From Escherichia coli (GTDB lineage: Bacteria; Pseudomonadota; Gammaproteobacteria; Enterobacterales; Enterobacteriaceae), in assembly GCF_003334385.1 (NCBI RefSeq), contig NZ_QOWN01000193.1: a stretch of DNA of 356 bases; one strand, written 5' to 3'. The notes under the pieces were generated by a model, which worked only from the letters and a program-made list of their open reading frames with translations, was not told where the DNA came from and ran no database searches. The translations under genes and the position numbers were made by a program. Below are positions 1 through 356 of this stretch, piece by piece; position 1 is the stretch's first letter; every line of letters starts with the position of its first letter.

Positions 1-356
1 GGTGAAGGTGATGCATATATTCCGCCTCATACAGGTCTGCCAGCAAACAGTACCGATATTGCACCACCAGATATTCCTGCTGGCTTTGTGGCCGTTTTCA
101 ACAGTGATGAGTCATCGTGGCATCTCGTTGAAGATCATCGGGGTAAAACGGTTTATGACGTGGCTTCCGGCGACGCGTTATTTATTTTTGAACTCGGTCC
201 GTTACCGGAAAATGTTACCTGGTTATCCCCGGAAGGGGGGGTTCAGAAGTGGAGCGGCACAGCCTGGGTGAAGGATACGGAAGCAGAAAAACTGTTCCGG
301 ATCCGGGAGGCGGAAGAAACAAAAAACAGCCTGATGCAGGTAGCCAGTGAGCATAT
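1..356 (+). CDS. tfa: Phage tail fibre assembly protein (Tfa family), internal fragment, partial at both 5' and 3' ends; reading frame begins at position 1
   Basis: Frame 1 is open across the whole window: 118 sense codons with no TAA/TAG/TGA, last 2 nt incomplete. Translation: [118 protein letters not shown]. From memory this closely resembles the N-terminal and central part of E. coli prophage tail fibre assembly proteins (TfaE/TfaQ/TfaR-like, lambda Tfa family), including the motifs [37 protein letters not shown] and [18 protein letters not shown]. The specific paralogue cannot be assigned. No start or stop codon of the gene lies in the window; the in-frame ATG at 334-336 is an internal Met. 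The ORF track did not report this frame, presumably because it has no stop in the window. Confidence 0.85.

What the first reader, a model, noticed from the sequence alone, without database searches (positions are those of the whole stretch)
2..271. Supplied ORF (frame 2) is probably an artefact; the real gene is the unreported frame 1
The track ORF begins with GTG at position 2, at the very edge of the window, with no room for a ribosome-binding site. It runs entirely inside the Tfa reading frame, shifted by +1. Its product ([30 protein letters not shown]...) is hydrophobic and basic, which is typical of off-frame translation of a real gene. The real frame was missed because it has no stop codon within the window. 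Annotating from the track alone would give a wrong 89-aa hypothetical protein.
Basis: seen in the sequence. Interest (0 to 1): 0.15.

Follow-up and report, generated by a model that had tools for sequence, protein, structure and literature searches.

The report
Off-frame ORF inside tail-fibre chaperone gene

Summary
The window is an internal piece (codons 26-143) of a lambda-type tail fibre assembly gene, tfa. It is 100% identical to an annotated CDS in an E. coli SCU-104 prophage and 94% identical to lambda orf-194. Frame 1 is the real frame. It has no stop in 53 distinct relatives, dN/dS is 0.09, it hits PHROG_105 at E=4e-56, and the full protein hits Pfam Caudo_TAP at E=2e-42.

The frame-2 ORF (2-271) exists but is not a gene:
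- In context it starts at an ATG 12 nt upstream, so the GTG at position 2 is a window-edge effect.
- It has no family hit.
- It is broken by stops in 15 of 53 close relatives and in all 7 divergent tfa genes examined. Both stops in the close relatives come from changes that are synonymous in Tfa.
- Its frame gives an apparent dN/dS of 3.4.
- Its start has no better ribosome-binding site than background.
- An ORF this long in that frame arises in about 10% of synonymous-codon shuffles.
- Its 36 database "homologues" are frameshifted or rearranged tfa genes, not an independent protein.

Verdict: observation confirmed, interpretation supported, low interest.

Side note: window 269-356 matches the start of Rfam family IS009, which lies wholly inside the tfa coding sequence.

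The parts
1..356 (+). Internal part of the tail fibre assembly gene tfa, read in frame 1: codons 26-143 of a 193-codon CDS, plus 2 bases of codon 144. This is the real gene.
   Evidence: 100% match to E. coli SCU-104 NZ_CP053284.1, under the CDS 'tail fiber assembly protein' WP_152066050.1. 94.4% identical to lambda orf-194. PHROG_105 E=3.9e-56. No stop in 53 distinct relatives. dN/dS 0.09. G-rich first codon position, 42% G.
2..271 (+). The listed 89-codon ORF in frame 2 (the +1 frame of tfa). It is a non-coding by-product of the tfa sequence. In the genome it starts 12 nt upstream of the window at an ATG and is 93 codons long.
   Evidence: No family hits. Apparent dN/dS 3.4. Expected by chance in about 10% of synonymous shuffles. 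Database hits are frameshift chimeras.
161..163 (+). Frame-2 codon TGG, which is TAG in 14 of 53 distinct relatives (31 of 83 loci). The change is GTG>GTA, synonymous Val in Tfa.
89..91 (+). Frame-2 codon TGG, which is TAG in one relative (L035). The change is again a synonymous GTG>GTA in Tfa.
269..356 (+). First 88 of 199 positions of Rfam RF02111 'IS009', on the sense strand and entirely inside the tfa coding sequence. The match is cut off by the window end.
   Evidence: E=1.7e-20, 86.8 bits. Full-length match of 227 bits at L001 5269-5467. No covariation support. Variable sites follow tfa codon phase, 11/7/31.
235..241 (+). Run of seven G, unique to this sequence among the 53 distinct copies. 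It is created by two private non-synonymous changes (E>G and F>V in Tfa).

Best explanation
The window is part of a functional, lambda-type tail fibre assembly gene (tfa) in a lambdoid prophage. It is read in frame 1.

Tfa is translated from an ATG that overlaps the stop codon of the upstream side-tail-fibre gene by one base (TAATG), with a GAGG 8 nt upstream. By homology, Tfa acts as a chaperone that helps the trimeric side tail fibre (Stf) fold and assemble. A variable N-terminal region contacts the fibre tip, and a conserved C-terminal Caudo_TAP region is shared with phage Mu Tfa.

The 89-codon ORF at 2-271 (93 codons in context) is simply the +1 frame of this gene. It happens to lack stop codons in this lineage. 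It is not translated into a functional protein. An ORF lister reports it only because the true frame runs off both ends of the short window.

Shown: frame identity, conservation pattern, lack of homologues, and the chance expectation. Inferred from family membership: the chaperone mechanism.
For: - Frame and annotation: 100% match inside the annotated tfa CDS, in register with frame 1. The listed rows of the 4,063 E. coli genomes and 40 phage records with a match annotate a tail fibre assembly protein here, apart from a few with no annotation or a generic label such as lambda's orf-194.
- Family: PHROG_105 E=3.9e-56. Pfam Caudo_TAP E=1.7e-42 over residues 72-192. Mu Tfa structure 5YVQ E=1.1e-9. 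Protein relatives in 287 phage records down to about 33% identity.
- Gene order: gpJ, lom, tail fibre, tfa, as in lambda. TAATG stop/start overlap and GAGG upstream.
- Selection: frame 1 has no stops in 53 distinct copies. Variable columns fall 18/16/49 by codon position. dN/dS is 0.09 in frame 1 and 3.4 in frame 2.
- Frame 2 is not conserved: TAG at 161 in 14 distinct copies and at 89 in 1, both synonymous in Tfa. There are 2-5 stops in the homologous 270 nt of all 7 divergent tfa genes.
- Frame 2 has no Pfam, PHROG or NCBIfam hit.
- Of the 36 hits in 5.8 billion proteins, 30 are frame-1/frame-2(/3) chimeras and 6 are fusions to unrelated sequence. None is stand-alone.
- One such hit was inspected in its contig. 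It is a terminase-tfa deletion junction where Tfa has lost its start and the gene caller took frame 2.
- Chance: a +1 ORF of at least 89 codons occurs in 9.7% of synonymous shuffles.
- Frame-2 starts pair with the anti-SD at -3.5 kcal/mol, against a gene-wide median of -3.2.
- Tfa function as described in PMC7291167 and PMC9608196.
Against: - Frame 2 stays open in 38 of 53 distinct close relatives, including lambda itself. A 93-codon +1 ORF is in the upper tail of the shuffle distribution (5.6% reach 93 or more). A young, dispensable overprinted gene therefore cannot be excluded by sequence alone.
- I could not inspect any ribosome-profiling or proteomic data for an induced lambdoid prophage. 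The lambda profiling paper was not held and the Ribo-RET supplementary tables were not held.
- The window's four private or near-private changes are all non-synonymous in Tfa. This hints at relaxed selection or sequence error in this particular copy. It does not affect frame assignment.
Confidence: 0.96

Rival explanations
1. The frame-2 ORF is a young overprinted gene, confined to the lambda/Qin/Rac tfa lineage. It would encode a small basic, hydrophobic peptide translated from the ATG 12 nt upstream of the window.
For: It is open in 38 of 53 distinct close relatives, including lambda. Its length is in the top 6-10% of synonymous shuffles. An ATG start is available in context. Out-of-frame internal starts do exist in E. 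coli genes (bioRxiv 10.1101/520783).
Against: - Premature TAG in 15 of 53 distinct copies (32 of 83 loci), from changes that are silent in Tfa.
- Stops in all 7 divergent tfa genes.
- Variation peaks at frame-2 codon position 2, with dN/dS 3.4 and no suppression of Tfa-synonymous change.
- No Shine-Dalgarno above background.
- No independent homologue among 5.8 billion proteins.
- The 74 out-of-frame products reported by Ribo-RET are 2-84 aa, and no tfa gene is named in the text. This is weak evidence, since prophage tail genes are barely expressed without induction.
Confidence: 0.02
2. The gene uses programmed ribosomal frameshifting from frame 1 into frame 2 (+1), or into frame 3 (-1) at the G7 run at 235-241, to make a second C-terminally different Tfa isoform.
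For: A seven-G homopolymer lies at 235-241. Frame 3 is open from about 213 to 350. Many database entries are Tfa N-termini joined to frame-2 sequence.
Against: - The G7 run is private to this one sequence among 53. Relatives have GGGGAGTTT or GGGGAATAT.
- The frame switch points in the chimeric database proteins are scattered over the whole gene, and each cluster has only 1-11 members. That is the pattern of sequencing errors or pseudogenes, not of a fixed slippery site.
- The conserved Caudo_TAP domain lies downstream in frame 1 and would be lost.
Confidence: 0.01
3. This tfa copy is itself decaying (a prophage pseudogene in the making), so neither frame gives a functional product.
For: The four changes private or nearly private to this sequence are all non-synonymous in Tfa: S>F, E>G, F>V, N>S. 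Only 1 of 5,426 E. coli genomes carries this exact sequence.
Against: The full 193-codon frame is intact, with start, stop and coupling to an intact 990-aa tail fibre gene. The lineage as a whole is under strong purifying selection, dN/dS 0.09. The neighbouring tail genes gpJ and lom are annotated as intact.
Confidence: 0.05

Closest known systems
Phage lambda Tfa (orf-194, J02459 21973-22557) and its E. coli K-12 prophage homologues TfaQ (Qin) and TfaR (Rac)
   Same: 94-98% nucleotide identity over the whole window. Same length class (193 versus 194 and 191 aa). Same position directly after the side tail fibre gene. Same Pfam Caudo_TAP domain. The +1 frame is equally open in lambda and tfaQ.
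   Different: Four private or near-private amino-acid changes (S>F, E>G, F>V, N>S) and a G7 run not seen in 52 other distinct copies. The upstream fibre gene here is an intact 990-aa protein, whereas laboratory lambda carries it as the separate orf-401 and orf-314. PMC7291167 attributes that to a frameshift mutation in stf.
Phage Mu tail fibre assembly protein TfaMu (PDB 5YVQ)
   Same: The C-terminal region (query residues 127-192) is detectably similar by sequence, E=1.1e-9. It belongs to the same TFA chaperone family as described in PMC9608196 and PMC7291167.
   Different: The N-terminal two-thirds, which includes most of the window, has no sequence match to the Mu protein. In this family the N-terminal domain is the variable, fibre-specific part.
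Bona fide out-of-frame overlapping genes in E. coli (for example gndA within gnd and the sfsA internal ORF, as reported by Ribo-RET)
   Same: The frame-2 ORF is embedded in a longer gene on the same strand, in a different frame.
   Different: Those cases have direct initiation or peptide evidence. The frame-2 ORF here has none. It also lacks an SD, is interrupted in many relatives, and at 89-93 aa is longer than any of the 74 reported products, which range from 2 to 84 aa.
Rfam RF02111 IS009
   Same: Window 269-356 matches model positions 1-88. The full model matches at 227 bits in genomic context.
   Different: The family is typed as an RNA gene. Here, and also in lambda, K-12 tfaQ and the K-12 DLP12 tfa remnant, the match lies wholly within the tfa protein-coding frame on the sense strand. 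Its variation follows codon phase and shows no compensatory pair changes.

Membership tests
Tail fibre assembly protein, lambda Tfa type (Pfam Caudo_TAP PF02413 / PHROG_105) | Significant match to the family profile | tested here: met
   Full protein: Caudo_TAP E=1.7e-42, model 1-131 of 131. Window frame 1: PHROG_105 'tail fiber assembly' E=3.9e-56.
Tail fibre assembly protein, lambda Tfa type (Pfam Caudo_TAP PF02413 / PHROG_105) | Gene lies immediately downstream of, and co-oriented with, the tail fibre gene it serves | tested here: met
   Tail fibre CDS at L001 1954-4926 and tfa at 4926-5507, with a TAATG overlap. The same arrangement is seen in lambda, K-12 Qin and 7 divergent phages.
Tail fibre assembly protein, lambda Tfa type (Pfam Caudo_TAP PF02413 / PHROG_105) | Intact reading frame of about 190-200 codons under purifying selection | tested here: met
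   193 codons. No stops in 53 distinct copies. dN/dS 0.09.
Tail fibre assembly protein, lambda Tfa type (Pfam Caudo_TAP PF02413 / PHROG_105) | Chaperone activity: required for folding and assembly of the trimeric side tail fibre | not testable with these tools
   Known for lambda and Mu Tfa from the literature (PMC7291167, PMC9608196). Inferred here by 93% amino-acid identity to lambda Tfa.
Overlapping (overprinted) protein-coding gene, as considered for the frame-2 ORF | ORF kept open across homologues | tested here: not met
   Internal TAG in 15 of 53 distinct close relatives. 2-5 stops in 7 of 7 divergent tfa genes.
Overlapping (overprinted) protein-coding gene, as considered for the frame-2 ORF | Purifying selection in its own frame, or suppressed synonymous change in the host frame | tested here: not met
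   Frame-2 apparent dN/dS is 3.4. Variation peaks at frame-2 codon position 2 (13/38/14). Host-frame pS is 0.146.
Overlapping (overprinted) protein-coding gene, as considered for the frame-2 ORF | Independent homologues or a family match for the product | tested here: not met
   No Pfam, PHROG or NCBIfam hit. All 36 database hits are frameshift chimeras or fusions.
Overlapping (overprinted) protein-coding gene, as considered for the frame-2 ORF | Translation initiation signal at its start | tested here: not met
   Anti-SD duplex is -3.5 kcal/mol for ATG 4990 and for GTG 5002, against a gene-wide median of -3.2. The tfa start gives -5.6, with GAGG at proper spacing.
Overlapping (overprinted) protein-coding gene, as considered for the frame-2 ORF | Direct evidence of translation (ribosome profiling or peptides) | not testable with these tools
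   No data accessible. Literature searches found nothing for tfa genes. Key sources were not held.
Rfam RF02111 IS009 (RNA gene) | Score at or above the family gathering threshold (117 bits) | tested here: met
   227.4 bits at L001 5269-5467. Within the window only the truncated 5' part is present, 86.8 bits.
Rfam RF02111 IS009 (RNA gene) | Secondary structure supported by covariation | tested here: inconclusive
   Of 23 pairs, none has a change on both sides. The covariation score is 0.050 against 0.052 in shuffles. The 46 sequences are 97% identical, so the test has little power. MFE z=-2.1.
Rfam RF02111 IS009 (RNA gene) | Exists as a discrete transcript distinct from the tfa mRNA | not testable with these tools
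   No transcript-end data available. [quoted passage not shown]

The most novel reading that the evidence does not exclude
The frame-2 ORF (93 codons from the ATG 12 nt upstream of the window) is a recently born, dispensable overprinted gene of the lambda/Qin/Rac tfa lineage. It would give a small, very basic (pI about 11.8), mildly hydrophobic peptide during late phage gene expression. The copies with a premature TAG would be natural knock-outs.
Probability: 0.02. Interest if true: 0.35.

Novelty: already known. Interest (0 to 1): 0.06.

Why it matters
It matters only as an annotation caution. On short fragments, an ORF lister or gene caller that needs a start and a stop will skip the true frame when it runs off both ends, and will report an off-frame ORF instead.

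The large protein collection shows this happening in practice. 36 clusters of "proteins" contain this frame-2 text, all from frameshifted, truncated or rearranged tfa genes. Such entries can look like "conserved homologues" to a careless homology search.

The tfa gene itself is well known and biologically ordinary.

The side observation has modest curation value: an Rfam "RNA gene" family (IS009) lies entirely within this coding sequence and shows only coding-type variation.

Tried and rejected
- NCBIfam gave no hit for either frame of the window fragment, so it did not discriminate.
- The lambda ribosome-profiling paper (Liu et al. 2013, recalled from memory, DOI 10.1073/pnas.1309739110) is not held.
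- The Ribo-RET paper's supplementary tables are not held. Its text names no tfa gene.
- Literature searches pairing tfa, tfaQ or tfaR with ribosome profiling or start-site mapping returned nothing relevant.
- The frame-2 database hits at first looked like possible conserved homologues. I rejected that after mapping each one back to tfa DNA: 30 of 36 mix frames 1 and 2 (some also frame 3), with switch points scattered along the gene. The other 6 are fused to unrelated sequence.
- I tested whether the Rfam IS009 model starts at the frame-2 stop codon because of a historical frameshifted tfaD annotation in K-12 DLP12. This was not supported. There the tfa remnant is fused in frame to a terminase fragment, and IS009 lies inside that frame. 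The coincidence remains unexplained and may be chance.
- The promoter/terminator scan around tfa found nothing above shuffle expectation.
- A SNORD113 match at 97-133 (E=0.46, far below its gathering score) was dismissed as chance.
- I considered programmed frameshifting at the G7 run and rejected it, because the run is private to this sequence.

Full report
**What is in the window**

Frame 1 is open for all 118 codons. It has no stop, so it runs off both ends of the window, and the ORF lister by its own rules does not report it. Frame 3 has 9 stops.

**Where it comes from**

The window is 100% identical to E. coli SCU-104 chromosome NZ_CP053284.1 1292824-1293179. It matches 4,063 of 5,426 complete E. 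coli genomes, mostly at 90-99% identity. All 25 listed rows are annotated 'tail fiber assembly protein' (tfaQ/tfaR in K-12). It also matches 40 phage records. One of them is phage lambda at 94.4%, under orf-194, the lambda tfa gene.

In SCU-104 the window is L001 5001-5356, inside the CDS 4926-5507 (193 aa, WP_152066050.1). The offset is 75 nt, so window frame 1 is the Tfa frame, starting at codon 26. The gene order is gpJ, lom, a 990-aa tail fibre gene, then tfa, as in lambda. The fibre gene's TAA and the tfa ATG overlap by one base (TAATG, L001 4924-4928). A GAGG lies 8 nt upstream.

**Frame 1 is a real, conserved gene**

- The window's frame-1 translation hits PHROG_105 'tail fiber assembly' at E=3.9e-56.
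- The full protein hits Pfam Caudo_TAP (PF02413) at E=1.7e-42, across the whole model.
- Its C-terminus matches the solved Mu Tfa (5YVQ) at E=1.1e-9.
- tblastn finds relatives in 287 phage records from Escherichia, Yersinia, Salmonella, Klebsiella, Ralstonia and others, down to about 33% identity.

I collected 83 loci holding the homologous segment, which gave 53 distinct sequences at 93-100% nucleotide identity. Frame 1 has no stop in any of them. The 83 variable columns fall 18/16/49 on frame-1 codon positions 1/2/3. Pooled Nei-Gojobori dN/dS is 0.09. Base composition shows the usual coding signature, with 42% G at codon position 1.

**Frame 2 is not a gene**

1. Start. In genomic context the ORF does not begin at the GTG at window position 2. 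It opens after a TAA at L001 4960-4962, and its first start is ATG 4990, giving 93 aa. The conclusion still holds. The 20 nt before ATG 4990 and GTG 5002 pair with the anti-Shine-Dalgarno at only -3.5 kcal/mol. The median for all positions in the gene is -3.2, and the genuine tfa start gives -5.6.
2. Family searches. No Pfam, PHROG or NCBIfam family matches the peptide, even at permissive thresholds.
3. Close relatives. Frame 2 carries a premature TAG at 161-163 in 14 distinct sequences (31 loci) and at 89-91 in one. That is 15 of 53 distinct sequences, or 32 of 83 loci. Both stops arise from GTG>GTA changes that are synonymous in Tfa.
4. Distant relatives. In all seven divergent tfa genes examined (35-64% amino-acid identity), the +1 frame has 2-5 stops within the homologous 270 nt.
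5. Selection. Within 2-271, variable sites fall 13/38/14 on frame-2 codon positions. Change is concentrated on the position that always alters the amino acid. Apparent dN/dS is 3.4. Frame-2 peptide identity to the window (86%) is lower than nucleotide identity (94%).
6. Chance. In 20,000 synonymous-codon shuffles of this gene (same protein, same codon usage), a +1 ORF of at least 89 codons occurs in 9.7% and of at least 93 codons in 5.6%. Some alternative-frame ORF of at least 89 codons occurs in 40%. The real gene also carries an 85-codon antisense ORF, which shows how common such ORFs are.
7. Composition.

**The apparent frame-2 'homologues'**

A search of 5.8 billion clustered proteins with the 93-aa peptide returned 36 hits. 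That could be mistaken for conservation. The hits have 1-11 members each and lengths of 73-161 aa. Their Pfam labels belong to various real tail proteins.

I mapped each hit back to tfa DNA with tblastn. Of the 36, 30 are mosaics of frame 1 and frame 2 (some also frame 3), and the switch point differs from protein to protein. Many are exactly 114 aa. That is the length expected if translation starts at the tfa ATG, a 1-nt deletion shifts the frame, and translation stops at the frame-2 TGA at window 269-271. The other 6 join frame-2 text to unrelated sequence. None is a stand-alone copy.

I inspected one of them, P0003, in its contig. A terminase gene is joined by deletion to tfa codon ~19, so the Tfa frame has no start. 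The gene caller took frame 2, whose ATG overlaps the terminase stop.

**Translation evidence**

I found none for a frame-2 product, but the evidence accessible to me is thin. No held paper links tfa, tfaQ or tfaR with ribosome profiling of internal starts. The lambda profiling paper is not held. The Ribo-RET study reports 74 out-of-frame internal starts in E. coli with products of 2-84 aa and names no tfa gene in its text. Its tables are not held. Prophage late genes are poorly expressed without induction, so this negative result is weak.

**How the real gene works (inferred from family membership)**

According to PMC7291167 and PMC9608196, lambda Tfa assists assembly of the trimeric side tail fibre Stf and is present in the virion. 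TFA-family chaperones combine a variable, fibre-binding N-terminal domain with a conserved C-terminal helical domain that drives trimerisation.

The window covers most of the variable N-terminal part and the start of the Caudo_TAP region (Pfam match residues 72-192). The one-base stop/start overlap with the fibre gene suggests translational coupling. That is my inference from the sequence.

**Side observations**

(a) Rfam IS009. Window 269-356 matches the first 88 positions of Rfam RF02111 'IS009' at E=1.7e-20. In context the full 199-nt model matches at 227 bits, against a gathering score of 117. It matches at L001 5269-5467, and equally in lambda, K-12 tfaQ and the K-12 DLP12 tfa remnant. 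In every case it lies inside the tfa reading frame on the sense strand.

Across 46 distinct copies, variable columns follow tfa codon phase (11/7/31). None of the 23 modelled pairs shows a compensatory change, and the covariation score equals the shuffle mean. The fold energy z-score is -2.1. So nothing here supports an RNA function beyond the mRNA. The copies are 97% identical, though, so the test is weak. [quoted passage not shown]

The model's first base coincides with the frame-2 stop codon. I could not explain that coincidence.

(b) Private changes. The window differs from the consensus of its relatives at 12 sites. Eight are shared polymorphisms. Four are private or nearly so, and all four are non-synonymous in Tfa. 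Two of them create a G7 run at 235-241.

**Verdict**

The region is an already known gene, and the listed ORF is an off-frame by-product. Interest is low.

Noticed in passing
window 269-356 (+); full match at L001 5269-5467, L002 2769-2967, L003 2769-2967, L092 4911-5109: Rfam RF02111 'IS009', typed as an RNA gene, matches strongly (227 bits in context against a gathering score of 117). It lies entirely within the tfa protein-coding frame on the sense strand, in SCU-104, lambda and K-12 tfaQ, and within the tfa-derived frame of the K-12 DLP12 remnant. Variation follows codon phase (11/7/31), and no modelled base pair shows a compensatory change. The family may simply be a conserved piece of coding sequence. 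The model starts exactly at the TGA that ends the frame-2 ORF, which I could not explain.
   Followed up: partly
window 188, 239, 241, 254 (G7 run at 235-241): The four differences that are private or near-private to this sequence among 53 distinct copies are all non-synonymous in Tfa (S>F, E>G, F>V, N>S). Two adjacent ones turn GGGGAGTTT into GGGGGGGTT, a seven-G homopolymer. This could be relaxed selection in this prophage copy, a real fibre-specificity variant, or base-calling error in the assembly.
   Followed up: partly
proteins P0001-P0036; locus L084 1995-2330: Public protein collections hold at least 36 clusters of spurious 'proteins' containing this frame-2 text. All come from frameshifted, truncated or rearranged tfa genes. 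Some carry real-looking names or Pfam labels because of the in-frame part. L084 is a metagenome contig where a terminase-tfa deletion junction made the gene caller choose frame 2.
   Followed up: yes
L001 4924-4928 and 4914-4917: The tail fibre gene's stop and the tfa start overlap by one base (TAATG), with GAGG 8 nt upstream. This suggests translational coupling of the chaperone to its fibre.
   Followed up: no
L001 5513-5538 (just after the tfa stop at 5505-5507): A perfect 8-bp GC-rich hairpin (AAGCCCGC, 10-nt loop, GCGGGCTT) directly follows tfa. It has no T-run after it and its loop is longer than 8 nt, so the terminator scan did not flag it. It sits at the prophage/host boundary region.
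   Followed up: no
L001 5627-10197 compared with L092 (K-12 DLP12, 577000-586500): The SCU-104 prophage ends near a SAM-dependent methyltransferase gene and ompT. K-12's DLP12 remnant has the same neighbourhood (tfa fragment, methyltransferase pseudogene, second tfa fragment, appY, ompT). SCU-104 also has manganese catalase, two ferritin-like genes and a general stress protein gene between tfa and the methyltransferase. This suggests a more complete lambdoid prophage at the DLP12 site.
   Followed up: no
L001 5215-5472 (-), overlapping window 215-356: An 85-codon antisense ORF lies inside tfa. It appears in truncated forms in the window's ORF list (215..322 and 223..354 on the minus strand). 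It is another long non-annotated ORF, consistent with the 40% chance of some alternative-frame ORF of at least 89 codons in shuffles.
   Followed up: no
L001 1954-4926: The upstream 990-aa tail fibre protein has a long, low-complexity Ala/Ser/Thr-rich N-terminal half. It also has three near-identical repeats of the motif KGIVQLSSATNSTSE...AATPKAVKAA.DLANGKYTAQDATTAQ.
   Followed up: no
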